A stretch of 64,000 nt of DNA. Source: Gemmatimonadales bacterium (GTDB lineage: Bacteria; Gemmatimonadota; Gemmatimonadetes; Gemmatimonadales; GWC2-71-9). The position numbers and the translations under genes were made by a program. This document shows positions 6,582-60,384 of this stretch, piece after piece. The stretch is taken from positions 2,464 through 66,463 of the forward strand of contig DATMDQ010000151.1 of NCBI GenBank assembly GCA_035557715.1, written 5' to 3'. The notes below the pieces were generated by a model. It saw nothing but the letters and a program-made list of their open reading frames with translations, was not told the origin of the DNA and did not search any database. Position 1 is the first letter of the stretch, and every line of letters begins with the position of its first letter.

Positions 6582-7997
6582 ATGAGCGCCATTGAACTGC
6601 CGCGGGTCCTGACGCTACGGGATCTGGTCTTGTTCAACATCGTAGCGATCCTCAGCCTCCGCTGGACGGCCACCGCCGCGGCGGCGGGTCCGAGCTCGCT
6701 CACTCTATGGGTGCTGGCGGGGCTCTTCTTCTTCATCCCACAGGGACTCGCGGTTAGCGATCTGTCGGCCCGCTATCCCCAGGAGGGCGGGATCTACTTT
6801 TGGACCAAGCGGAGCTTCGGGGAGGGCCACGCGTTTCTCTGCGGCTGGTGCTATTGGGTCAACAACATCCTGTACTATCCCAATCTGCTGATGTCCACCG
6901 CGGTCATCGGGACCTACGCCATTGGCCGGGGTGGCAGCGGGATGATGGACGATTGGACCTACATCCTCACCGCCACGCTCAGCGCTCTCTGGCTTGCGGT
7001 GCTTCTGAACGTGATCGGCCTCAAGACTGGCCGCTGGCTCCAGAACCTGGGGGCGCTGGGCACCTACATCCCAGGCGCTGTGCTCATCGGTTTCGGCATC
7101 CATGCCATGCTCACCCGGCCGGCGGCGACGCCCATTACCCTCGAGACCATCACGCCCAACCTGGGCAACATGTCGCAGCTGAATCTCTGGGCGTCCATCG
7201 CCTTCGCGTATGCCGGGCTCGAGCTCTGCGCCGTTATGGGAGACGAGATCAAGGATCCCCGCCGGACCCTGCCGCGCTCGATCTACATCGCGGCGCCCTT
7301 CATAGCATTCCTGTACATCGCGGGCACTCTCTCGCTGTTGTGGCTGGTGCCGAGCTCCGAGGTGCATGTCGTCTCGGGATTCTTCCAGGCGATGGCCGCC
7401 GGTGCCCGGGACTTTGGTGGACTGGCCTGGCTCATTCCGGCTGCCGCGGCTCTCTACGTGTTGGGGAACATCGGGGGCATCGGGGCCTGGCTCACCGGCC
7501 CCGCGCGGGTGGCCTTCGTCATTGGACTCGACCGGTACTTCCCTCCGGCATTCGGCCGGGTGCACCCACGGTGGAAGACGCCGTACGTCGCGATCCTGAC
7601 TCAAGCGGTGCTGGCTACCGTGTTCATGCTGCTTTCGATCCTGGGAAGAGGCACGACGGTTGAGCGGGCGTACCTGATGTTGCTGGACACGATGTTACTG
7701 ATCTACTTCATTCCCTACATCTATCTGTTCCTGACCTATCTGATTGTCCGCATCCGGGAGCCCTTGCCCGGCTCTGGTACCTGGCTCCGGGGAAAGGCCG
7801 CAGCGGTGGTCGTCGGTGTCGCCGGATTGCTGCTCACTCTGCTGGCGATGATCGTCGCCAGCATCCCACCCTCGGATACTGCGCAACCGTGGCTCTTCCG
7901 CCTCAAGGTCATCGGCGGTGCTACGCTCTTTGTTCTTCTCGGCGGCGTGGTGTACTGGCGCGCACGCTTGTCTGCCGTGGGGTCACGGCGCGGGTGA
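6582..7997 (+). CDS. APC-family amino acid/polyamine permease
   Basis: About 12 hydrophobic segments; EGGIYFW, FAYAGLE, EIKDPRR, WKTPYVA motifs. Confidence 0.9.
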   Translation: MSAIELPRVLTLRDLVLFNIVAILSLRWTATAAAAGPSSLTLWVLAGLFFFIPQGLAVSDLSARYPQEGGIYFWTKRSFGEGHAFLCGWCYWVNNILYYPNLLMSTAVIGTYAIGRGGSGMMDDWTYILTATLSALWLAVLLNVIGLKTGRWLQNLGALGTYIPGAVLIGFGIHAMLTRPAATPITLETITPNLGNMSQLNLWASIAFAYAGLELCAVMGDEIKDPRRTLPRSIYIAAPFIAFLYIAGTLSLLWLVPSSEVHVVSGFFQAMAAGARDFGGLAWLIPAAAALYVLGNIGGIGAWLTGPARVAFVIGLDRYFPPAFGRVHPRWKTPYVAILTQAVLATVFMLLSILGRGTTVERAYLMLLDTMLLIYFIPYIYLFLTYLIVRIREPLPGSGTWLRGKAAAVVVGVAGLLLTLLAMIVASIPPSDTAQPWLFRLKVIGGATLFVLLGGVVYWRARLSAVGSRRG

Positions 7998-49537: not shown

Positions 49538-50503
49538 ATGCGCTCCCTTTTCGCCTTCCTGTTCGCTGTGACGTTTCTGGCTCCCCGGAATAGCGCCGCA
49601 CAATCCGGCAGCGCCGTCGCCCCCGCCGGGGCTGACACGATAGCGGCCGCCGCGGCAGCCGTCATCAAGAAGAAGAAGGGTGGCATGTTCGGCAAGTTCA
49701 AAGGCCTGGCTAAGAACAAGGTCGTCAAGACTGTCGCCAAGACCGCGCTGTGCACGGTGGTGCCCGGGGGCCAGGTCGTCGCCGGCGCGCTCGAAGCCGC
49801 GGAGACGAAGAACGTGGCTGGGGCGGCTGGGGCGGCCGGTGCGGCCCTGAGCGGAGGCGGGGGCGGGGGCTGCATGCCGGGGATGCCCGGGATGGCCGCG
49901 CCCACCAGCCCTGCGGCAGGCGGGGTCGGTGCGGCCGGCGTCGGAGCACTGGGCGCCGCTGCCTCTGCTGCGGCCCTGCCGGGACAGCCTTCCACCGGCA
50001 TGCCGGGCATGGCGATGTCACCCGAGCAATTGAAGCAGATGCAGGAGCAGTACGGGAAAATGGGGATGGATACCGCCCAGCTGCGGGCCATGCAGCAGAT
50101 GATGGCGGGCCTGCCGGGCGCCTCTCAGGGTGAGGCGGCGGCCCCCTCGGGTCCAGCCGCAGTGGCCGGCGGTCCTGCGCTCACCCGGGAGAAGGGCAAG
50201 ATGCTGCTGCGGCGGCTGCCCTGGGTACCCGGGAGTGACGCGGTGCAGCAAGGTACCGAGCCGATGTTCGGGATGGTCATGCAGGAGGTCGCGGCTGCCA
50301 TCAAGGCCGCACCCAAGCGCTACAAGATTGAGGCGCGGGTAGAAGAGCAGGGTGGCAAGGCTCAGAACCGGCTCCTGTCCCAGAAGCGCGGCGCCGCGGT
50401 CCTGGCGGCCCTGACTGCCCGGGGCGTGCCGGCGGACGCGTTGACCGTGTCCGAAGGGAAGGCCGATAAGGATCCCCGGATCATCGTTTCGGAAGGCAAA
50501 TAA
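49538..50503 (+). CDS. Exported protein with Gly/Ala/Met-rich middle and C-terminal OmpA-like domain
   Basis: AGGAGG SD; signal ...SAA-Q; YKIEARVE...NRLLSQKRGAAV...GVPAD resembles OmpA_C. Confidence 0.72.
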   Translation: MRSLFAFLFAVTFLAPRNSAAQSGSAVAPAGADTIAAAAAAVIKKKKGGMFGKFKGLAKNKVVKTVAKTALCTVVPGGQVVAGALEAAETKNVAGAAGAAGAALSGGGGGGCMPGMPGMAAPTSPAAGGVGAAGVGALGAAASAAALPGQPSTGMPGMAMSPEQLKQMQEQYGKMGMDTAQLRAMQQMMAGLPGASQGEAAAPSGPAAVAGGPALTREKGKMLLRRLPWVPGSDAVQQGTEPMFGMVMQEVAAAIKAAPKRYKIEARVEEQGGKAQNRLLSQKRGAAVLAALTARGVPADALTVSEGKADKDPRIIVSEGK

Positions 50504-50531
50504 GCCACTCGAGTAGCGGAGGAGGCGCCGT

Positions 50532-51827
50532 ATGCAGGGACCGATAGTCAACCTCGTTACCGCGGCCGGGCTGATGACATCGCTGGGCGTGTCCGCGGTC
50601 GGGGCACAACAGCAGGTGAAGGTCACCGTCGCCGCAGTTCCCAATCCGATCGCGGCGGGAAGCTGCACCCGAATCTGGGCCGACGTGCGGGACGAGCTCA
50701 ACCGGCAGCTCACCCTGGAGAACGGCGCGCCGCTCCAATGGGGCTCGTACGACTACAGCACCACAAATGGAACCGACTTCGAGTGGCGGAGCACCGGCTC
50801 GGAAGAGTTTGAGCTCTGCGCTAAGCCCGGCGTCGGAGCGGTGAGCACGCAAGTGACTGCCACCATCAAGGGCATGCCTTACAGTGGAAGTGCGCTGGTC
50901 TCGGTCGCGGCGCAGCCTTCCGCGCCGACCGCGAACACCGGCGGGGTTGCGCCCGGCGGGGTCGCCTCGGCCACACCGCCAGCAGCCGCGCCTCAGGCAC
51001 CCACACCGGCAACGGTCCCAGCTCAGCCCTATACGCCGGGTGCAGCGCCCGCCCCGCCGGCGCAGGCCTACTCACCTCCGTCTCAGGCTTACTCACCTCC
51101 GGCCCAGCCCTACGCACCGACCGCGGCCCCTGCCAGTGCTTCACCGCCCGCCGTCGCTGCTCAGCCTCAGGCCCCGGCAGCCCAGCCGGTCCTGGCACAA
51201 CCGCTGAAGAGCAGTGGTGGGTTCTTCAAGAAGATGGGGAGTCACTTCAAGCAGAAAGCGGCCGAGGTGAAGGCCGAGACGGCGCAGAACCTCACGGCAG
51301 CCGCCACCCAGGTCGTGGATACCACGTTTCAGACCGGCACCAGGCTGGTCGCCTCCACGACCGCAGAGGTCACCAACACTGCCCGCTCGGGAATTGGTGG
51401 CGTTGGTCAGCGGCTGATGCTGGCGCCCCAGCGGGGCGGAGGGAGCGCGGACAACCTCGCGCTGGCCATCGCCTCGGGACGGGCGGTGCTGCTGGAGCTG
51501 CGGTTTACCCCGGGCACCTCGGTGCTTGAGCCATCGGCTCGGGACCTGGTGCAGCGGCTGGGGGGTGAACTGAAAAAGGCCATGGCAGAGATGCCTGCGG
51601 CCAGGTTCGAAATAAATGCGCACGTAGAATCGCCCACCGACCAGGTGCTGTCCGAGAATAGAGCAGCCACGATCAAGGCGCTGCTGGGTAACCAGGCCGA
51701 CGCGCGAAGGCTGACAGCGCTGGGGTATGGCGCCTCTCAGCCGCTCAATGGCGTCCCCACGGCTCGAATCGAGATTGTGCGGTGCAACGATGGCCAAACC
51801 AGGTGCTTAATGGAGGTAGCGCCATGA
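50532..51827 (+). CDS. Exported protein: Ig-like N-domain, Pro/Ala linker, C-terminal OmpA-like domain
   Basis: GGAGGAGG SD; signal ...VGA-Q; QxYxP repeats; LRFTPGTSVL, FEINAH, LSENRA, LTALGYGASQP. Confidence 0.75.
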   Translation: MQGPIVNLVTAAGLMTSLGVSAVGAQQQVKVTVAAVPNPIAAGSCTRIWADVRDELNRQLTLENGAPLQWGSYDYSTTNGTDFEWRSTGSEEFELCAKPGVGAVSTQVTATIKGMPYSGSALVSVAAQPSAPTANTGGVAPGGVASATPPAAAPQAPTPATVPAQPYTPGAAPAPPAQAYSPPSQAYSPPAQPYAPTAAPASASPPAVAAQPQAPAAQPVLAQPLKSSGGFFKKMGSHFKQKAAEVKAETAQNLTAAATQVVDTTFQTGTRLVASTTAEVTNTARSGIGGVGQRLMLAPQRGGGSADNLALAIASGRAVLLELRFTPGTSVLEPSARDLVQRLGGELKKAMAEMPAARFEINAHVESPTDQVLSENRAATIKALLGNQADARRLTALGYGASQPLNGVPTARIEIVRCNDGQTRCLMEVAP

Positions 51828-53399: not shown

Positions 53400-54599
53400 A
53401 TGCGTGTTCCCGTGGTGGTTTGTCTGACATGTGTCGGTCTCCTCAGCCTGGCGACCTTTCCCAAGCAGGCGCTCGCACAGGTCCCAACGCGGGCCAGCGA
53501 GCCAGTCCTTCGGGCTCCCACGCGGGACGACCCGGCGACGGTTCCAGCCAGCCCGCAAGCCACAGAGCCTGCTCCAGCCGCAGCTCCGGCCGCCGCCGCT
53601 CCCGCGGCGCCGGCGCCCGTCAGCGCGGCACCTGCGCCGAGCGGGGTTACCCAACTGCCTCCGGCCGCGGCACCCCCGACGACAGCCTCGACCTCCTCGG
53701 CGGCAACAGCCTCGAAAGGCACCTATAGCACGGCCAACTTCTCGCTCAGCTTGGAGGGGGTCACCGTGGGGTATCTGCGGGCGGTGGAAGGGGGTGCGGC
53801 CGTCGGCACGGTGGTGGTCGACAACGTGGGGCCCGACAACATCCAGAAGAAGCATGTGACTGGGGTCAGGTACGAGCCACTCACCTTCGACGTGGGCCTC
53901 GATTCCAAGCCAGTCGTCGAGTGGGTCACCTCCGCCTGGCAGGGGAAAAATGCGAGAAAGAGCGGCAGCGTCCAGATCCTAGACTACGACTTCAATATCG
54001 TGGGGGGTCGCGAATTCACGGACGCCCTCATCACCGGGACGACGGTCTCGGCACTGGATAATTCCAATGCCAAGGCACCCCTTGTGCTGACGGTGACCGT
54101 GGCGCCGGAGTCCGTCCGGGAAGTGGGGGGCTCCGGCAAGGCGCAAGGCTTGAGTCCGAAGAGCAAGCCGATTTCGTCCGGCAATTTCCGGTTCGAGATG
54201 GGGGACCTCGAGACCTCATTCGTGAGACGCATTGAGCCCTTCACAGTCGGGCAGCAGGCGACTGCGAACGAAATCGGCGAAATGCGAAGTGCCGAGAAAC
54301 AACCCAGCACCCTGGAGTTCCCCAACCTGAAGATCAGGATGGCTGCTCGCCCGTACCCAAACTGGTCCAAGTGGCGTGACGAGTTCCTGCTCAAGGGCAA
54401 CGGTGGGGAGGCCCAGGAGAAGAACGGTGCGATCGTGTTGCTCGATCCGACCCTGCAGAATGAGCTGGGCCGCATCAATCTGTTCAACTGTGGCCTCATC
54501 CGGCTCGGGGGCGAGCGACAGGAGGCAGCGAAGGAGAGTGCCAACACGGTCACAGCAGACCTGTACTGCGAGAAGATGGAGCTGGCCATCAAGAACTAG
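53400..54599 (+). CDS. Exported protein with two tandem phage/eCIS tail-tube (gp19-like) domains
   Basis: AGGAGG SD; signal ...ALA-Q; domain 1 NFSLSLEG...KKHV...YEPLTF...EW...RKSGSVQILD; domain 2 NFRFEM...PNLKI...W...EKNGAIVLLD...LYCEKMEL. Family assignment is by motif recognition only. Confidence 0.72.
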   Translation: MRVPVVVCLTCVGLLSLATFPKQALAQVPTRASEPVLRAPTRDDPATVPASPQATEPAPAAAPAAAAPAAPAPVSAAPAPSGVTQLPPAAAPPTTASTSSAATASKGTYSTANFSLSLEGVTVGYLRAVEGGAAVGTVVVDNVGPDNIQKKHVTGVRYEPLTFDVGLDSKPVVEWVTSAWQGKNARKSGSVQILDYDFNIVGGREFTDALITGTTVSALDNSNAKAPLVLTVTVAPESVREVGGSGKAQGLSPKSKPISSGNFRFEMGDLETSFVRRIEPFTVGQQATANEIGEMRSAEKQPSTLEFPNLKIRMAARPYPNWSKWRDEFLLKGNGGEAQEKNGAIVLLDPTLQNELGRINLFNCGLIRLGGERQEAAKESANTVTADLYCEKMELAIKN

Positions 54600-54810: not shown

Positions 54811-56016
54811 ATGACGAAACCAGCTGCTGTTTCCTGTGTCGTTGTCGTCGCCATGCTCAGCCTGGCCGGCTTCGTCCGTCCGGCTACGGGACAGGCACCG
54901 GAACGGGCTGCCACCCCGCGGCTGGTGGTTCCAGCCGGGGTGACAGCGCCGCTTCCGGGTCAACCGACCACCGCCCCCACCACGGCTGCGCCGGCCGAGC
55001 CCGCCCCAGCGGCGCCCGCGCCGGTCAGCGCGGCGCCTGCGCCGAGCGGGGTTACTCAAGTGCTTCCGGCCGCGGCACCACCAGCCACGGCGAGCAGCTC
55101 CCAGACCGCGCTGGCGGCCGAGCGGTCGTACGTGGCGGGTAAGTTCGGACTCACGCTCGATGGCGTGCCGATCGGCTGGGCCAAGAGCGTTGAGGGAGGG
55201 GATGCCTCGGCGGACGTGGTGGTCGAGAAAGCTGGCCCGGACCACATCTCAGGCAAGCACCTGAGCAACATCAAGTACGAGCCCATTGCCGTGGTGACCG
55301 ATCTCCCGTCCAGGACATTGAGCGACTGGATTGCCGGATCGTGGAAGGGAACCGCGGTCAGGAAAAACGGCAGCATTCAAAGCATGAGCTACGATCTCAA
55401 GATCCTGAACGAGCTCGAGTTCATGAACGCCCTGGTCGCGGAGACCACCATGCCGGCGCTCGATGCCGCGAGCAAGGAGAACGCCCAGATCACGATCAAG
55501 ATCCTGCCGGAATACACCCGCACCAAGCCAGGGTCGGGGCAGAGCGGGTCCGGCATCGACGCCAAGAGCCAGAAGCGGTGGACGCGGGCGAATTTTCGCT
55601 TCGAGATGAGCGGCCTGGATGGGACCAAGGTCAACAAGATCGACTCGATCACGGTTCGTCAGACGACAGTGGAGAATCCGGTCGGCGAACTCCGCGATTA
55701 CGAGAAAGAGCCGGGCAAGATCGAGTTCTCCAACCTGAAGATCACCCTCGCCGCGTTGTCGGCGCAGACCTGGGTGGACTGGCACAACGATTTCCTGGTC
55801 AAGGGAAACAGCGGCGCAGCGCAGGAGCGGAGCGGCGCCATCGTGTACCTCGACCCAACCAGGACATCCGAGCTGGGTCGCGTCAATCTCTCGAACTGCG
55901 GAATCTTCAGGCTCGGCCGGGAAAAGGCAGAGGCGGGAAGCGAAAGCATCCAGCGCATGGTCGCTGAACTGTATTGCGAGCGTATGGAGCTGGTCGTCAA
56001 CAACGCAGGGAAATGA
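54811..56016 (+). CDS. Paralogous exported double tail-tube protein
   Basis: Signal ...ATG-Q; KFGLTLDG...KYEPI...DW...RKNGSI...PALDAASKE; NFRFEM...PGKIEFSNLKI...ERSGAIVYLD...ELYCERMEL. Confidence 0.75.
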   Translation: MTKPAAVSCVVVVAMLSLAGFVRPATGQAPERAATPRLVVPAGVTAPLPGQPTTAPTTAAPAEPAPAAPAPVSAAPAPSGVTQVLPAAAPPATASSSQTALAAERSYVAGKFGLTLDGVPIGWAKSVEGGDASADVVVEKAGPDHISGKHLSNIKYEPIAVVTDLPSRTLSDWIAGSWKGTAVRKNGSIQSMSYDLKILNELEFMNALVAETTMPALDAASKENAQITIKILPEYTRTKPGSGQSGSGIDAKSQKRWTRANFRFEMSGLDGTKVNKIDSITVRQTTVENPVGELRDYEKEPGKIEFSNLKITLAALSAQTWVDWHNDFLVKGNSGAAQERSGAIVYLDPTRTSELGRVNLSNCGIFRLGREKAEAGSESIQRMVAELYCERMELVVNNAGK

Positions 56017-56056: not shown

Positions 56057-56986
56057 ATGCACATCGGAGCGCGCGCGGTAGCCGCAGCCCTGGTCGGCAC
56101 CCTGGCCGCTGCAGGACCGCTCAGCGGGCAGACTTCTCGGGACGCGGCGCGAGTCGAGCCGATCGAACGGCCCGTCCTTCCCGTCCGTGTGTCGTCCTCG
56201 CTGCAGGCGTCGATCGGATACACCCGGATCGAATTCGAGGTCAACCGACCTCTGGCTCAAGCCAAAGGCGGGCTGGTACCGTTCACCGTCAAGTTCACCG
56301 GTGCTGGTGATGTGGCCTCGGTGCAAGTCCCAGGATCGTTGTCCTATCCGCTCGGGGCTCACTCCGGAAGCTTTGAGCAGACCATTCCCAACGCGGACAT
56401 CCGCGCTCTGCTGAAGCGTGACGAAGCAGCCATCCTTTCGCGCTGTACGTCGACCCTCGACTACAACAAGGTCGAATCGATCAACACGGTGCACGACGCC
56501 CAACTACCCGTGACGGTCAACGGACCCGACGGCGCGGTCGTGGCCTCGACTACAGTCCCATACCAGCTGGGACTCACCTGTACCCGCGTGCCACCGCTCG
56601 CCGTTTCCATCGGGTACACCAGGATCGAATACAGCATCGCTCAGCCGCTCACCAGCTCCAAGGGCGGGCTGGTTCCCCTCACGGTAAAGTTCAATGGCAC
56701 CGGCAATGTCGCGTCGGTCCAGGTCCCCGGGTCATTGTCGTATCCGCTCGGCTGGCACTCCGGGAGCTTCGAGCAGACTCTGCCCAATGCCGATATACGC
56801 GCCATCATGAGGCGGGACGAAGCGGCGATCATGGACCGGTGTAAGTCCACCCTCGACTACAACAAGGTCGATTCGATCAACACGGTGCACGATGCCAAGC
56901 TCCCGGTGACGGTCAATGGACCCGACGGCGCGGTGGTGGCCTCCGTCACCGTGCCCTACCAGTTAGGGCTGACCTGTACCCGGTAA
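56057..56986 (+). CDS. Exported protein made of two near-identical 125-aa domains
   Basis: GGAGG SD before ATG 56057 (track start 56024); signal ...LSG-Q; repeat unit IGYTRIE...LGLTCTR. Confidence 0.78.
   Translation: MHIGARAVAAALVGTLAAAGPLSGQTSRDAARVEPIERPVLPVRVSSSLQASIGYTRIEFEVNRPLAQAKGGLVPFTVKFTGAGDVASVQVPGSLSYPLGAHSGSFEQTIPNADIRALLKRDEAAILSRCTSTLDYNKVESINTVHDAQLPVTVNGPDGAVVASTTVPYQLGLTCTRVPPLAVSIGYTRIEYSIAQPLTSSKGGLVPLTVKFNGTGNVASVQVPGSLSYPLGWHSGSFEQTLPNADIRAIMRRDEAAIMDRCKSTLDYNKVDSINTVHDAKLPVTVNGPDGAVVASVTVPYQLGLTCTR
56213..56983 (+). repeat. Intragenic tandem duplication, 375-nt units with 396-nt period
   Basis: 56213-56587 and 56609-56983; 102 of 125 residues identical by manual alignment. 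Confidence 0.92.
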
Positions 56987-57038: not shown

Positions 57039-59009
57039 ATGCAGACGGTCACACGAGCCATCATGATCATGACAACGCTCCTGGGTGTCATTGCACCGGC
57101 GCTCCAGGCCCAGCAGCCCAAGCCGGGTAATCTCACCGCTACCTTGACCAATCCGACCACGGTCGTCCTGTCGTGGACCGCGGCAGGGAATGCCACCAGG
57201 TATTGGGTTCAGCGGAGCATCGGCACCGCCAACTTCGCCAACCTGAGTGCGCCGAAGATCACAGGGACGACGTACACCGACGCCGGAGCTCCTGCTGGGA
57301 CCGCGATCCGGTACCGGGTCATTGCCGGCTTCAGCAGCGGCCCGAACTCGTATGGCACGAGCATCAACGTGACCACTCCCTCGGGGAGTACCGCTTCCAC
57401 CGCACCACCGGCATCTTCGAGTCCGCCGGCATCGCCGGCATCCGCGGCATCGGGGGCACCGGCATCGGGGGCACCGGCATCGGCGGCACCAGCCTCGGCG
57501 CCGCCTGCAGCTCCGCCGGCCCAGCCCCTGGCGGTGGTGGTCACGCCGGTGCTGGTGCCGAGCACGCCGGTCGTTGCTGCCCCCACCGGAGTTCTCAGAT
57601 CCGTACCGGGCAACGCCGTGACTCCCACAACCCTGGCCAAAACGGCGATGAAGCCTGCTGGCCCACCTCCAGCGGGTTTGACGGTGACTGGCACACCTTC
57701 CTCGGGCACGGTCACGTGGCAGCCGACGTCGGAAGCGGCGAGCTTCACCGTCACCCGCTGGCTTCAGACCAAGCCAGACTGCTGTCGCGTGAGCTCTCCT
57801 ACCCTAACTACTCCGGTCTGGAGCGATACCACCCTTCACTGGGCGGGCACCTACATCTACCGCGTGTACGCCAACTATCCGGACGGCCGGGAAGGGTTTG
57901 CCGACGTGGCCTTCACTCGACCCGAACCGAAGGATCCCGCGGGGTTCACCGCGACGCAAACCGGGGAAGGAGAGGTTGAGCTCGCCTGGCAGGCTGTTCC
58001 GGGCGTGACCACTTATTTCGTGGGCGGCCCCGGTGCGGGGAACGAGGGGCTCAAGGTCAAAGGGACCAAGACTACGCTCACCGGGGTTCCCAATGGAGCA
58101 CAGCACTGGACCGTCGCCAGCTGGTACGAGCCCGGTGGCCTGCTCGTCAACGGGCAGTTCTGGCCTAAAGCGTCCGTCAATGTGGTGGCTCGAAGTGGTA
58201 AATACCGCGTGATGGTGACCGGGCTCCGGTCGGAACACGCAACGGTGGATGACTGGTGGTCGAAAGACGGCAAGTGGGACGAAGTGTACGTCTCGGCATT
58301 CGTGCAGACGTTCAATCGACCTTCCGGCCAGCTATTGGCCTCCGCCACCATCAAGAGTCCCATCCATGGTGACGTCAACGGCTTTCCCCCGGGGGCGCGG
58401 GTACGAGCCGGCACTGCTTCGGACCTGGGAGGCATCGTGACCTCCGATAATGTGTCGCCGATTCTGGGACAGCCCGCGCCGGGAGCCGCCGGATATCCTC
58501 AGCTGGTGCTGTGGGAGGGGACACTGACGTCCGACCGAGAGGTCGTTGTCCTCCACCCGGTCCTTTGGGAAGCGGACATAGGTAACGCGAACACCACGGC
58601 CTACAATGGCTGGCGGCAGTACTTCGAGGGCAATCCGGCGCGGGAGTGGTCGATTCCGGGCGTGCAGACTCCAGACCCACAGGCAGCTACCTGGTTTCAG
58701 GAGGGGGCCGCAGTCAAGCTCTCGCCGGCGGTGGATTGGATGGTCGTCACGACCACCGACAAGGATCGACCCATAGGGGTCCGGAACGGCGGCTGCGAGA
58801 CTTACTGTGGCTTCTGGCTCGATCAGATGCTCATCCTGACACGCGAGCGGATCGAACGAGTGCTCAGCAGCCCATACGCAACCGGTGAAAAGGGACAGCT
58901 TGAGTTCCGCGTCACGGATCACTACAAGCTTCCCAACGGCAGTCACTCTTCCTGGAGCGCGCTCCAGGGGGATTACGTCCTGATCCTCCGTGTCGAGCGC
59001 ATTTCATGA
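57039..59009 (+). CDS. Exported protein: three FN3-like domains plus the same unassigned C-terminal domain as 51824
   Basis: Signal ...LQA-Q; PGNLTA...LSW...YTD...YRV; two more FN3-like units; DDWWSKDGKWDEVY; 15-nt ASGAP/ASAAP repeats at 57447-57506. Confidence 0.78.
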   Translation: MQTVTRAIMIMTTLLGVIAPALQAQQPKPGNLTATLTNPTTVVLSWTAAGNATRYWVQRSIGTANFANLSAPKITGTTYTDAGAPAGTAIRYRVIAGFSSGPNSYGTSINVTTPSGSTASTAPPASSSPPASPASAASGAPASGAPASAAPASAPPAAPPAQPLAVVVTPVLVPSTPVVAAPTGVLRSVPGNAVTPTTLAKTAMKPAGPPPAGLTVTGTPSSGTVTWQPTSEAASFTVTRWLQTKPDCCRVSSPTLTTPVWSDTTLHWAGTYIYRVYANYPDGREGFADVAFTRPEPKDPAGFTATQTGEGEVELAWQAVPGVTTYFVGGPGAGNEGLKVKGTKTTLTGVPNGAQHWTVASWYEPGGLLVNGQFWPKASVNVVARSGKYRVMVTGLRSEHATVDDWWSKDGKWDEVYVSAFVQTFNRPSGQLLASATIKSPIHGDVNGFPPGARVRAGTASDLGGIVTSDNVSPILGQPAPGAAGYPQLVLWEGTLTSDREVVVLHPVLWEADIGNANTTAYNGWRQYFEGNPAREWSIPGVQTPDPQAATWFQEGAAVKLSPAVDWMVVTTTDKDRPIGVRNGGCETYCGFWLDQMLILTRERIERVLSSPYATGEKGQLEFRVTDHYKLPNGSHSSWSALQGDYVLILRVERIS

Positions 59010-59032
59010 CTTCCCCGCACTCTGAGAATCTT

Positions 59033-59566
59033 ATGAAAACCGTTCCCTGGTCGATTATCGCAGCGCTTGGCCTGGCCGCTCCGACGGCCCTCGCTGCACA
59101 AGAGAAGCTTGTGGCCCGGGGTGGCAGTGCCAGCTTTACTATGACCATCGAGGGAACCAAGCAGGGAGTGTTCGCGGCCGCGAAGGGGGGGAGTATGGCC
59201 GGTCTTCGATTCGGTTACGGCGCCAAGTCACCACGGGATGCGGCCAGCGGGCTGGCCAGCGGCAGGCGCCAACACGGGCCGGTCGTCGTCACCAAACTGG
59301 TTGGCACTGGATCGCCGCAGATCTTCCAGGCGTTGACCACCAATGAGGTGCTGAAATCAGTCGTGGTCGTGCTGCCCGGGGAGGGGGGGAGTAGCTACAC
59401 GGTCAAGCTCAGCAACGCCGTCGTCAGCGAGATCAAACAGTACACCGATGTGGTCAACGGTCTGGCGGTGGTTCTGGAGGACGTGAGCTTTATCTTCCAG
59501 AGGATCGAAGTGGAGGATCCGGCAACCAAGACGATGGCGATGGACGATTGGATGGCCGGGAAGTGA
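59033..59566 (+). CDS. hcp: Hcp/TssD-like tube protein with an N-terminal signal peptide
   Basis: MTIEGTKQG, SPRDAASGLASGRRQHGPVVVTK, SPQIFQALTTNEVL, YTVKLSNAVV, LEDVSFIFQRI, DDW; preceded by MKTVPWSIIAALGLAAPTALAA-Q. Confidence 0.82.
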   Translation: MKTVPWSIIAALGLAAPTALAAQEKLVARGGSASFTMTIEGTKQGVFAAAKGGSMAGLRFGYGAKSPRDAASGLASGRRQHGPVVVTKLVGTGSPQIFQALTTNEVLKSVVVVLPGEGGSSYTVKLSNAVVSEIKQYTDVVNGLAVVLEDVSFIFQRIEVEDPATKTMAMDDWMAGK

Positions 59567-59574
59567 GCTAACGC

Positions 59575-60384
59575 CTAGAGCGCCAGGCCGAGCTGGACCC
59601 CGACTCTCTGCACGATAAGGATTGGCTGCAGCGGCCGGTCCTGGTCGGCAACATGGAGCGCGCCCCGGAAGCGGACCCGGCGGAGCGCCCGCGCCACGGT
59701 GGCCCGGGCCTCGGCCGCGGTGTTGCACTGCTGGCTCAAATGCGCCAGGACGACGGCCAGAAGTCCCGGATGGTGCAGGTCGGCCAACAGCTCGGCCGCG
59801 GCCCGGTTCGACAGGTGGCCGGCTGAGCCCGCAATCCTGCGTTGCACCACCGGAGGGTATTCGCTGGTGCGGAGCTGGACCTCGTCGTGGTTGGCCTCCA
59901 GCACGATTGCGCTCAGGTTGCGAAGCAGGTAACGCACTGCCGTGGTCGGGCGACCAAGATCATAAGCAACCCCGACGCTGGCTCCCTCGGATTCACGGAC
60001 GACCACCGCGAGCGGCTCGGCGGCATCATGGCTCGTCGGGCATGCCTCGATGGTGAAGGGGCCCAGCTCCAGGCGGGCGCAAAGTCCGAGCGTCCGGTGC
60101 TCGGCATCCTCCATGGTGGCTAACAGATGCCGCCAGGTACCGGGGGCCGTGAGGACCGGCACTTGCAGGCGCCGCGCCAGGAGGGGTGCTCCACACGCGT
60201 GATCGCCGTGCTCGTGGGTCAGGACGATCCCGGCCACCTGTGACAGGTCGAGGCCCGCCCGCTCGGCCCGCCGCTCGATCTCGCGGGCGCTGAACCCGGC
60301 GTCGATCAGCAGCCCCACGCCTTCGGATTCCACCGCGAAGCAATTCCCCCGCGATCCCGAGCCGAGCACGTAGAGCGTGATCAC
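59575..60384 (-). CDS. MBL-fold metallo-hydrolase (YycJ/WalJ-like)
   Basis: GSGSRGN, IDAG, THEHGDH, EANHD, GHLSN, HLS. Confidence 0.88.
   Translation of the reverse strand: MITLYVLGSGSRGNCFAVESEGVGLLIDAGFSAREIERRAERAGLDLSQVAGIVLTHEHGDHACGAPLLARRLQVPVLTAPGTWRHLLATMEDAEHRTLGLCARLELGPFTIEACPTSHDAAEPLAVVVRESEGASVGVAYDLGRPTTAVRYLLRNLSAIVLEANHDEVQLRTSEYPPVVQRRIAGSAGHLSNRAAAELLADLHHPGLLAVVLAHLSQQCNTAAEARATVARALRRVRFRGALHVADQDRPLQPILIVQRVGVQLGLAL

What the first reader, a model, noticed from the sequence alone, without database searches (positions are those of the whole stretch)
59033..59566. Orphan Hcp-family protein carrying a Sec signal peptide
Seen: an Hcp1-type core (SPRDAASGLASGRRQH, SPQIFQALTTNE, EDVSFIFQRI) preceded by a 22-aa signal-like peptide ending ALAA-Q. 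It is the last gene of the run, with no tss genes nearby. Established: Hcp forms hexameric rings that bind cargo in the lumen and is normally exported only by the T6SS. Inference: a Sec-routed Hcp ring acting in the periplasm or outside the cell. Having both tube lineages (Hcp and gp19-like) in one operon is itself unusual.
Basis: partly seen in the sequence, partly recalled or inferred. Interest (0 to 1): 0.78.

Follow-up and report, generated by a model that had tools for sequence, protein, structure and literature searches.

The report
Exported Hcp protein without any T6SS
A soil Gemmatimonadales bacterium with no type VI secretion machine encodes a true copy of that machine's tube protein (Hcp) behind a conserved Sec export signal. 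The gene sits in a conserved operon of other exported phage-tail tube proteins, so the Hcp ring fold appears to be reused in the cell envelope in a way I found described in no paper.

Summary
Window 59033-59566 (+) encodes a 177-aa protein that matches Pfam T6SS_HCP (54.8 bits, cut-off 23.5). Its AlphaFold model superposes on solved Hcp structures (TM 0.68-0.75).

- **Signal peptide:** residues 1-22 have the n/h/c layout of a Sec signal peptide and end in LAA|Q. The same [A/G]|Q site is seen in all seven other operon proteins.
- **Start codon:** the ATG at 59033 is invariant in seven orthologous loci. The internal Met of "MTIEG" is not conserved.
- **No T6SS:** the genome is 99.7 % complete and has one Hcp only. 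It has no TssC, no phage sheath and no real gp25.

The gene is under purifying selection (dN/dS 0.13-0.27). It lies in an operon that is syntenic across Gemmatimonadales.

- **Survey:** in 80 species-representative genomes, about half of the relatives carry a signal peptide. None of 29 such loci has T6SS machinery genes within 10 kb, against 11 of 29 loci without a signal peptide.
- **Recurrence:** exported Hcp next to an exported double gp19 tube protein recurs in a Nitrospiraceae locus and in one other metagenomic locus. The Nitrospiraceae locus also holds a signal-peptide VgrG.

Export and independence from T6SS are well supported. Ring or tube assembly in the envelope is inferred. Four literature searches found no description of this.

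The parts
59024..59028 (+). Shine-Dalgarno-like GAGAA, 4 nt before the start codon
   Evidence: A purine-rich GGAGA/TGAGAA motif is conserved at this spacing in all 7 aligned orthologous loci. The sequence further upstream is not conserved.
59033..59566 (+). Coding sequence of the exported Hcp (177 aa plus TGA stop)
   Evidence: ORF. PF05638 scores 54.8 bits. The ATG at 59033 is invariant in 7 loci. dN/dS of the core is 0.13-0.27 against orthologues.
59033..59098 (+). Sec signal peptide, residues 1-22 (MKTVPWSIIAALGLAAPTALAA), predicted SPase I cut A22|Q23
   Evidence: It has an n/h/c layout with no Cys and no RR. Hydrophobicity and the xA|Q end are conserved while the sequence drifts. Indels are multiples of 3 and dN/dS is below 1. 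The AF2 pLDDT is below 50 here. The same [AG]|Q site is seen in 10 other predicted exported proteins of the window.
59099..59131 (+). Short mature N-terminal extension QEKLVARGGSA (residues 23-33) before strand beta-1
   Evidence: Q[ED][KR]LVARGG is conserved in the Gemmatimonadales clade. It is deleted in some members (P0022, L014) and absent from T6SS-linked relatives.
59132..59563 (+). Hcp beta-barrel core, residues 34-177
   Evidence: AF2 places strands from residue 35 with pLDDT 83-98. Foldseek gives TM 0.68-0.75 to Hcp crystal and cryo-EM structures. All family-invariant residues are kept.
59228..59281 (+). Most conserved loop of the subfamily, S66-PRDAASGLASGRRQHG-P83
   Evidence: D69, G73 and R79 are invariant in 80 sequences. 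The same motif occurs as a free tandem repeat in giant exported proteins.
53400..54599 (+). Operon partner: exported protein with two gp19-type tube domains
   Evidence: PF06841 matches in 2 stretches. The N-terminus is signal-peptide-like and ends ALA|Q. Orthologues sit in the same operon in L006, L008, L012 and L013.
54811..56016 (+). Operon partner: second exported double gp19-type tube protein
   Evidence: PF06841 scores 55.5 bits in 2 stretches. The signal peptide ends ATG|Q. Relatives without a signal peptide sit in a canonical eCIS cluster.
56057..56986 (+). Operon partner: exported protein of two ~130-aa repeat domains. It is directly adjacent to the Hcp gene in four related loci.
   Evidence: Cluster 4. 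Adjacent to Hcp in L006, L014, L015 and L060. It is 79-89 % identical across loci and has 1-3 domain copies. The AF2 model is moderate and beta-rich, with no informative fold match.
57039..59009 (+). Operon partner directly upstream: exported FN3 protein with an unassigned C-terminal domain
   Evidence: PF00041 fn3 match. Signal peptide ends LQA|Q. Its TGA stop overlaps an alternative in-frame ATG at 59006.
49538..51827 (+). Operon partners: two exported OmpA-like (peptidoglycan-binding type) proteins at the head of the run
   Evidence: PF00691 OmpA matches. Present in the same order in L006 and L008.
59575..60384 (-). Convergent downstream gene that marks the end of the operon
   Evidence: ORF. 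Its orthologue in L006 is annotated Lactamase_B, and it is syntenic in L006, L012, L013, L016 and L060.

Best explanation
The gene makes a genuine Hcp-fold protein as a pre-protein with a cleavable Sec signal peptide.

**Proposed route.** SecYEG moves it across the inner membrane. Signal peptidase I cuts after Ala22, leaving Gln23 at the new N-terminus. The ~16.5 kDa mature protein then works in the cell envelope or beyond. It does so without any type VI secretion system or other contractile machine, because the genome has none.

**Proposed partners.** In this Gemmatimonadales lineage it is one component of a conserved, co-oriented set of exported proteins: two OmpA-like wall-binding proteins, two FN3 proteins, two double gp19-type tube proteins and a tandem-domain protein.

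**Most likely mode of action.** It still forms the Hcp ring, since every family-invariant residue is kept. The ring would act as a structural or binding module together with these partners.

**Status of each step.**
- Shown: the fold; the conserved leader and start codon; absence of T6SS in the genome; purifying selection; operon synteny; and the mutual exclusion between leader and T6SS gene linkage among relatives.
- Inferred: actual export and the cleavage site; ring formation; physical interaction with the gp19-type proteins; final location.
For: **Fold and family.**

**Leader is real and translated.**
- The ATG is invariant, an SD-like motif precedes it, and indels are multiples of three.
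- Hydrophobicity and the A|Q end are conserved across about 35 close homologues.
- dN/dS is below 1 in the leader and 0.13-0.27 in the core.
- The same [AG]|Q junction is seen in the 7 other operon proteins and in 3 unrelated exported proteins of the window.

**No contractile machine in the 99.7 %-complete genome.**

**Conserved operon and chromosomal synteny.**

**Family-wide pattern.**
- 34 of 68 complete relatives in species-representative genomes carry a signal peptide.
- 0 of 29 signal-peptide loci (at least 7 kb held) have TssA/BC/E/F/G/L/M genes in the flanks, against 11 of 29 loci without one (Fisher p = 3e-4).
- A 49 %-identical relative without a leader sits in a VgrG-Hcp-TssE-TssF-TssG cluster.
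- 86 of the 150 nearest 50 %-cluster representatives look signal-peptide-bearing.

**The same split in the partner family.** Double gp19 proteins without a leader lie in a sheath/baseplate eCIS cluster. Sec- or Tat-bearing ones do not.

**Pairing recurs.** Exported Hcp plus exported double gp19 occurs in Nitrospiraceae L049 and in L093.

**Invariant residues retained.**
Against: - There is no experimental or transcript evidence.
- SignalP was not available. The signal-peptide call rests on a simple rule plus conservation.
- Position -3 of the proposed site is Leu. This is tolerated but is not the classical Ala.
- Most signal-peptide Hcps in other phyla are solitary (36 of 42 loci have no gp19 neighbour). 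Partnership with the gp19-type proteins is therefore not a general property of exported Hcps.
- Three surface loops are 6-13 residues shorter than in T6SS-linked relatives. This could affect ring stacking.
Confidence: 0.72

Rival explanations
1. The exported Hcp has an autonomous function. It might be a soluble periplasmic or secreted ring that binds or sequesters small proteins or another ligand. On this view it does not assemble with the gp19-type tube proteins, and operon adjacency in Gemmatimonadales reflects co-regulation only.
For: - Most signal-peptide Hcps in other phyla are lone genes in unrelated metabolic contexts.
- The signal-peptide state needs at least 13 changes on the tree by parsimony. 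The exported form therefore arises or persists without a fixed partner set.
- The conserved SPRDxxSGxxxGKRQH loop also exists as a free repeat in giant exported proteins, which hints at a self-standing binding motif.
Against: - Within the window's clade the gene is always inside the tube-protein operon, at the same chromosomal site.
- The Hcp plus double gp19 pairing recurs in two unrelated loci.
- The closest genome has a second Hcp paralogue inside the operon.
Confidence: 0.2
2. The N-terminal hydrophobic segment is an uncleaved signal anchor. The Hcp domain would then be tethered to the inner membrane and face the periplasm.
For: The uncharged stretch between K2 and Q23 is 20 residues long, enough to span a membrane.
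Against: - Pro at -6, a small residue at -1, and Gln at +1 are conserved. This matches the junction of all other predicted exported proteins in the window.
- Other classes of exported Hcp fuse the leader directly to strand beta-1 (…AQAKA-AYEFYVT). That leaves no linker for a tethered barrel.
Confidence: 0.06
3. This is an ordinary cytoplasmic T6SS Hcp with a mis-read start, or it is served by a T6SS that lies in an assembly gap.
For: The assembly has 186 contigs, so gaps exist. Databases label the homologues as T6SS tube protein.
Against: - No TssC, sheath or gp25 was found in a 99.7 %-complete genome.
- The internal Met is not conserved and would truncate beta-1.
- The leader is conserved and translated.
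- None of 29 signal-peptide loci has T6SS genes nearby.
Confidence: 0.02

Closest known systems
T6SS tube protein Hcp/TssD (P. aeruginosa Hcp3, PDB 3HE1; V. cholerae Hcp in the sheath-tube, 5MXN; 6A2V)
   Same: Same Pfam family, above the cut-off. Same fold, TM 0.68-0.75. All residues invariant in the subfamily are retained.
   Different: - It carries a Sec signal peptide, whereas canonical Hcp has none and polymerises in the cytoplasm inside the sheath (established knowledge).
- No T6SS genes are in the genome.
- Three loops are 6-13 residues shorter.
- It scores just under the NCBIfam TIGR03344 cut-off.
T6SS-linked members of the same Hcp subfamily (e.g. Polyangiaceae P0113 / L011, start MAYEFYVTIEGTKQGK)
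   Same: 45-49 % identical over the whole core, with the same motifs (IEGTKQG, SPRDxxSGxxSGKRQH, TNEVLKSV, FQRIE, DDW).
   Different: They have no leader and sit in VgrG-Hcp-TssE-TssF-TssG clusters. The window protein has a leader and has gp19, OmpA and FN3 neighbours instead.
Specialised or 'evolved' Hcps with C-terminal toxin domains (Hcp-ET; from my own knowledge, not checked here)
   Same: The Hcp fold is reused with an added module.
   Different: Those remain cytoplasmic T6SS substrates with a C-terminal extension. Here the addition is an N-terminal export signal and T6SS is absent.
eCIS / phage T4 gp19-type tube proteins (partner family in the operon)
   Same: This is the sister tube-protein lineage. 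It shows the same split: forms without a leader lie in sheath/baseplate clusters, and Sec/Tat forms lie outside them.
   Different: The Hcp studied here is PF05638, not PF06841. A weak PF17642 TssD match was seen only in a gp19 neighbour.
Bacteroidetes Q-rule for signal peptidase I substrates (PMC5837995)
   Same: Predicted cleavage exposes Gln at +1 in the Hcp and in all 10 other predicted SPase I substrates of the window.
   Different: The paper states that the rule holds for Bacteroidetes but not for the entire FCB group. Gemmatimonadota are not mentioned, and pyroglutamate formation was not tested here.

Membership tests
Hcp/TssD protein family (PF05638, Hcp fold) | Sequence match above the curated Pfam cut-off | tested here: met
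   54.8 bits against 23.5, residues 52-161.
Hcp/TssD protein family (PF05638, Hcp fold) | Hcp beta-barrel fold | tested here: met
   AF2 pLDDT 84. Foldseek top 20 hits are all Hcp, TM 0.56-0.75, probability 1.00.
Hcp/TssD protein family (PF05638, Hcp fold) | NCBIfam TIGR03344 (TssD subfamily) trusted cut-off | tested here: not met
   54.7 bits against 58.9. This is a near miss.
Hcp/TssD protein family (PF05638, Hcp fold) | Hexameric ring assembly | not testable with these tools
   Only monomer prediction is offered. Indirect support: all subfamily-invariant residues are retained.
Functional T6SS inner tube component | Co-occurrence with the T6SS core (TssB/C sheath, TssE/F/G/K baseplate, TssJ/L/M) | tested here: not met
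   No PF05943, no PF04984 and no true PF04965 in the 99.7 %-complete genome. None in the 64-kb window by in-box HMMs.
Functional T6SS inner tube component | No signal peptide; cytoplasmic assembly | tested here: not met
   A conserved 22-residue Sec-type leader is present.
Sec / signal peptidase I substrate | n-region with positive charge, uncharged hydrophobic h-region, and a c-region with a helix breaker and a small residue at -1 | tested here: met
   K2; WSIIAALGLAA; P17-T-A-L-A-A22|Q23. The rule-based scan is positive. SignalP itself was not available.
Sec / signal peptidase I substrate | Leader conserved in character but not in sequence across orthologues, and translated | tested here: met
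Sec / signal peptidase I substrate | Demonstrated export and cleavage | not testable with these tools
   Needs fractionation, reporter fusions and N-terminal mass analysis.
Lipoprotein (SPase II) or Tat substrate | Lipobox Cys at +1, or a twin-arginine motif | tested here: not met
   The protein has no Cys and the leader has no RR. Other family members do have a lipobox (P0111, L018) or Tat-like leaders (L045, P0235, P0259).

The most novel reading that the evidence does not exclude
Exported Hcp, exported double gp19-type tube proteins and, in Nitrospiraceae, an exported VgrG spike assemble after Sec/Tat export. Together they would form a tube or tube-and-spike structure without sheath or baseplate, located in the periplasm or on the cell surface and anchored by OmpA-like wall-binding proteins. 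This would be a new class of phage-tail-derived envelope apparatus, built outside the cytoplasm.
Probability: 0.22. Interest if true: 0.92.

Novelty: new variant of a known kind. Interest (0 to 1): 0.72.

Why it matters
**It contradicts a textbook rule.** Hcp is taught as a protein with no signal peptide that leaves the cell only through the T6SS. Its presence in culture supernatant is the standard assay for T6SS activity, and its gene is used as a T6SS marker in genome surveys. Here a large share of one Hcp subfamily carries Sec, lipoprotein or Tat leaders and is never linked to T6SS genes. This share is 34 of 68 complete relatives in species-representative genomes and 86 of the 150 nearest cluster representatives.

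**Practical consequence.** Databases label these proteins "T6SS tube protein". That label inflates T6SS counts in phyla such as Gemmatimonadota, Acidobacteriota and Nitrospirota.

**Biological consequence.** The ring and tube fold of contractile injection systems appears to have been re-used outside the cytoplasm.

**What this case adds.** This locus has a conserved partner set. It therefore offers a concrete, testable system: two double gp19 tube proteins, wall-binding proteins and a highly conserved tandem-domain neighbour.

Tried and rejected

I could not test whether the relatives' genomes lack TssC, and used 10-kb flanks instead.
- There was therefore no whole-genome HMM scan with my own T6SS models and no transcript evidence.

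**Searches with no useful result.**
- Four literature searches found no paper on signal-peptide Hcp or VgrG. One search on Gemmatimonadota and T6SS returned a plasmid T6SS survey that I did not read.
- PADLOC gave no defence-system match for the Hcp, seven operon neighbours or the divergent regulator.
- The promoter/terminator scan found nothing around the gene. This fits co-transcription but is weak evidence.
- PDB sequence searches of the FN3 protein, the tandem-domain protein and a double gp19 protein gave only FN3 hits or chance hits.
- The AF2 model of the tandem-domain neighbour (pLDDT 73, one model of five) matched only generic tandem beta-sandwich proteins at TM below 0.3. This is uninformative.

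**Ideas considered and rejected.**
- An internal start at the Met of MTIEG, because it is not conserved.
- A decaying remnant gene, because dN/dS is 0.13-0.27.
- The weak gp25 hit, which lies in a GH94 enzyme.

**Left open.** The upstream in-frame ATG at 59006 overlaps the previous stop codon. It is present only where the FN3 gene precedes Hcp. It would add 9 residues and still give a signal peptide, so the main conclusion does not depend on it.

Full report
**1. What is in the sequence.**
Window 59033-59566 (+) is an open frame of 177 codons plus TGA. It is the last gene of a run of co-oriented genes. The previous gene (57039-59009) stops 23 nt before it, and the next gene (59575-60384) is convergent.
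- The protein matches Pfam PF05638 T6SS_HCP at 54.8 bits (cut-off 23.5) over residues 52-161.
- It matches NCBIfam TIGR03344 at 54.7 bits, just under that model's cut-off of 58.9.
- By sequence, the nearest solved protein is P. aeruginosa Hcp3 (3HE1, E 1.9e-12).
- An AlphaFold2 model built on 80 homologues has mean pLDDT 84. Residues 1-30 are unstructured and a confident beta-barrel runs from residue 35.
- The best Foldseek matches in the PDB are all Hcp proteins (6A2V, 5MXN, 3HE1, 4HKH; TM 0.68-0.75).

The Hcp assignment is therefore sound.

**2. The N-terminal leader.**
Residues 1-22 read M-K-TVPWSIIAALGLAA-PTALAA, followed by QEK. This gives a one-lysine n-region, an uncharged hydrophobic core, a proline six residues before the end and a small residue at -1. 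There is no cysteine (so no lipobox) and no twin arginine. SignalP was not available, so I relied on conservation.

- **Conservation of character.** About 35 homologues of 56-90 % identity have the same length. Their leader drifts in sequence but keeps its hydrophobic character and the ending x-A|Q or x-G|Q.
- **Start codon.** In a DNA alignment of seven orthologous loci the ATG at 59033 is invariant. A GGAGA/TGAGAA motif lies 5-9 nt upstream. Sequence further upstream is unrelated in three loci. Every indel in the leader is a multiple of three.
- **Selection.** Pairwise dN/dS is 0.22-0.79 in the leader (few sites) and 0.13-0.27 in the core.
- **Internal Met.** Starting there would remove most of strand beta-1, which in T6SS-linked relatives begins MAYEFYVTIEG.
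- **Upstream ATG.** An in-frame ATG at 59006 overlaps the stop of the preceding gene, but only in loci where that gene precedes Hcp. It would add nine residues and still leave a signal peptide.
- **Same junction elsewhere in the window.** The seven other proteins of the run and three unrelated predicted exported proteins (starts at 7994, 14030 and 41313) all have [A/G]|Q at the predicted cleavage site. This resembles the Bacteroidetes "Q-rule" (PMC5837995). It shows that the Hcp leader looks like the genome's ordinary SPase I substrates.

**3. No machine to fire it.**
The window lies in a 3.2-Mb assembly rated 99.7 % complete.
- That genome has one Hcp match only.
- It has no TssC/VipB and no phage-type sheath.
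- The only gp19 matches are those in this operon.
- The one sub-threshold gp25 match (17 bits) lies inside a GH94 glycosyl hydrolase.

My own HMMs for TssA, BC, E, F, G, L, M and VgrG were built from neighbours of relatives and confirmed by Pfam. They find nothing in the 64-kb window.

**4. A conserved operon.**
The closest homologues on long contigs (L006, L008, L012, L013) show the same gene set:
- a divergent BTAD/AAA_16 regulator;
- two OmpA-like proteins;
- FN3 proteins;
- one or two ~400-aa proteins with two gp19 tube domains;
- a tandem-domain protein;
- the Hcp.

The same flanking genes follow downstream: an MBL-fold hydrolase, nucleotidyl transferases, Robl/LC7, seryl-tRNA synthetase and UvrD. 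Gene order within the operon varies. The Hcp gene is directly next to the tandem-domain gene in four loci (L006, L014, L015, L060). The closest representative genome has a second signal-peptide Hcp inside the operon. All operon proteins have signal-peptide-like N-termini, so they should meet in the same compartment.

**5. The wider family.**
A full HMMER search of 1.84 billion cluster representatives gives 2,104 relatives at E up to 1e-3.
- Of the best 150, a simple rule signal-peptide-bearing, seven of them with a lipobox. A further 27 have no N-terminal extension.
- Another 21 have an extension that the rule does not call. Several of these are visibly Tat or Sec leaders.
- The remaining 16 are long multidomain proteins.
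- A scan of one genome per species returned 80 loci from more than ten phyla. Automated classification gives 34 with a signal peptide, 32 without, and 14 partial or unclear.
- Leader architectures are diverse. Some leaders are fused directly to beta-1 (…AQAKA-AYEFYVT). Others have a 25-residue linker, a Cys-rich carbohydrate-binding-like domain, a lipobox (Chloroflexota) or a Tat-like leader.
- On a tree of the core domain, the window protein sits in a fully supported clade of six signal-peptide Hcps. Five are from Gemmatimonadota records. The sixth is on a 3.3-kb contig of a bin labelled Gloeobacterales.
- On the same tree, the signal-peptide state needs at least 13 changes by parsimony. At least 3 of these are forced by well-supported branches. 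The leader has therefore been gained or lost repeatedly. The backbone of this short-protein tree is poorly resolved.

**6. Leader and T6SS linkage exclude each other.**
Among loci with at least 7 kb of sequence held, 0 of 29 signal-peptide loci have any T6SS machinery gene in the flanks. This compares with 11 of 29 loci without a leader (Fisher p = 3e-4).
- A 49 %-identical relative without a leader sits in a VgrG-Hcp-TssE-TssF-TssG cluster.
- Two more distant signal-peptide Hcps are lone genes in metabolic neighbourhoods.

**7. The partner family shows the same split, and the pairing recurs.**
Homologues of the double gp19 protein come in four kinds:
- a Sec leader plus a Pro/Ala linker (Gemmatimonadota);
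- Tat leaders;
- short Sec leaders;
- no leader (~310 aa).

Their contexts differ by kind.
- A form without a leader lies in a textbook eCIS cluster with Pvc16_N, two sheath genes, gp19, CIS_tube and gp25.
- A Sec form is paired with a second double-tube gene and has no CIS genes nearby.
- A Tat form lies next to a 193-aa Hcp with its own signal peptide (…ALKPTQG|QVS) and no sheath or baseplate genes.

In a Nitrospiraceae genome (L049) one locus holds two signal-peptide Hcps and a Tat-leader double gp19 protein. It also holds a VgrG that itself starts with a signal peptide (MRPVQICVCLILLVMPCIALAG|ANP…) ahead of the usual VgrG N-terminus. A second Nitrospira locus (L028) has the same signal-peptide VgrG.

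Exported forms of the Hcp tube, the gp19-type tube and even the spike therefore co-occur in at least three unrelated settings, always without sheath or baseplate.

**8. What the protein keeps and what it has lost.**
All residues invariant or nearly invariant across 80 family members are present. These include E40, G41, Q44, G45, the S66-P83 loop, E105, K108, E149, Q156, E159, D171 and D172. The family includes both T6SS-linked and exported forms.

Compared with T6SS-linked relatives, the Gemmatimonadales clade has three loops that are 6-13 residues shorter, around residues 48-53, 115-120 and 139-146. Other exported classes keep the long loops. I read this as a retained ring-forming core with trimmed surface loops. 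This is inference, because no oligomer prediction was possible.

**9. Most likely mechanism.**
Shown:
- the fold;
- a conserved, translated leader;
- absence of any contractile system in the genome;
- purifying selection;
- the conserved operon;
- family-wide exclusion between leader and T6SS linkage.

Inferred:
- SecYEG export and SPase I cleavage at A22|Q23;
- ring formation;
- function in the envelope together with the exported gp19-type proteins, wall-binding OmpA-like proteins and the tandem-domain neighbour.

Rivals:
- An autonomous soluble ring that binds cargo. Most exported Hcps elsewhere are solitary, which favours this.
- An uncleaved membrane anchor.
- A mis-annotated cytoplasmic Hcp, which is now very unlikely.

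**10. Comparison with what is known, and novelty.**
The protein belongs to the Hcp protein family by sequence and fold. It fails two defining features of a T6SS tube component: co-occurrence with the T6SS core and lack of a signal peptide.

Four full-text searches found no description of signal-peptide Hcp or VgrG. Earlier notes of this scan report similar exported orphan Hcps in other genomes. I treated those as leads, and my own survey agrees with them.

New in this locus is a conserved partner set, and the finding that the exported Hcp plus exported double gp19 pairing recurs across phyla. I class it as a new variant of a known kind. The operon-level reading, a tail-like structure assembled outside the cytoplasm, would be categorically new but is unproven.

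**11. Limits.**
There is no experimental, transcript or proteomic evidence. SignalP was not available.

Noticed in passing
L049:11650-13713 (+) and L028:4932-6905 (+): Two Nitrospira/Nitrospiraceae loci encode a full VgrG (Phage_GPD plus Phage_base_V) preceded by a signal peptide. The gene lies beside signal-peptide Hcps. In L049 a Tat-leader double gp19 protein and an M10-like metallopeptidase are also present. No sheath or baseplate genes lie within 10 kb.
   Followed up: partly
window 7994, 14030, 41313, 49538, 51824, 53400, 54811, 56057, 57039, 59033 (starts of predicted exported proteins); also 50532 by eye: Every predicted SPase I substrate in the window has Gln at +1 of the predicted cleavage site ([A/G]|Q). 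This is a Bacteroidetes-style Q-rule in a Gemmatimonadales genome. The Q-rule paper says the rule does not hold for the entire FCB group.
   Followed up: partly
P0121, P0148, P0126, P0139, P0201, P0146, P0127 (proteins); P0077: The conserved Hcp loop motif SPRDxxSGxxxGKRQHKP occurs as 5-25 free-standing tandem copies in giant (965-5053 aa) proteins; four of the five N-termini inspected look like signal peptides. It is triplicated in place in one 207-aa exported Hcp.
   Followed up: partly
window 56057-56986; L006:10534-11841; L060:294-809: The ~130-aa domain of the tandem-domain operon protein is 79-89 % identical across loci whose Hcps are only 63-90 % identical. Its copy number varies from 1 to 3. 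It has one Cys pair per domain and no family or informative fold match.
   Followed up: partly
L012:6147-6725 (+): The closest representative genome (Hcp 90 % identical) carries a second, divergent signal-peptide Hcp paralogue inside the same operon (MKSFDRLILAVVTVLAFLPATAGA|QASGSTFWVQIEGTKQG).
   Followed up: no
L033, L034, L037, L039, L043, L046, L055, L081: Hcps of the same subfamily, without a leader and with no T6SS genes within 10 kb, occur in Actinomycetota MAGs (Gaiellaceae, Solirubrobacteraceae). As far as I know, this phylum is not known to have T6SS. L081 also has a double gp19 homologue 2 kb away.
   Followed up: no
L045:3803-4783 (+); P0235, P0259: Some family members carry Tat-like leaders (SRRRLLQGAAGAAVIGV…) instead of Sec leaders. 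This suggests that the folded protein, or a complex, can be exported.
   Followed up: no
L015 (3.3-kb contig of a bin labelled Gloeobacterales cyanobacterium): This contig carries the Gemmatimonadales-type Hcp (69 % identical) and the tandem-domain gene. It is probably a mis-binned Gemmatimonadota contig.
   Followed up: no
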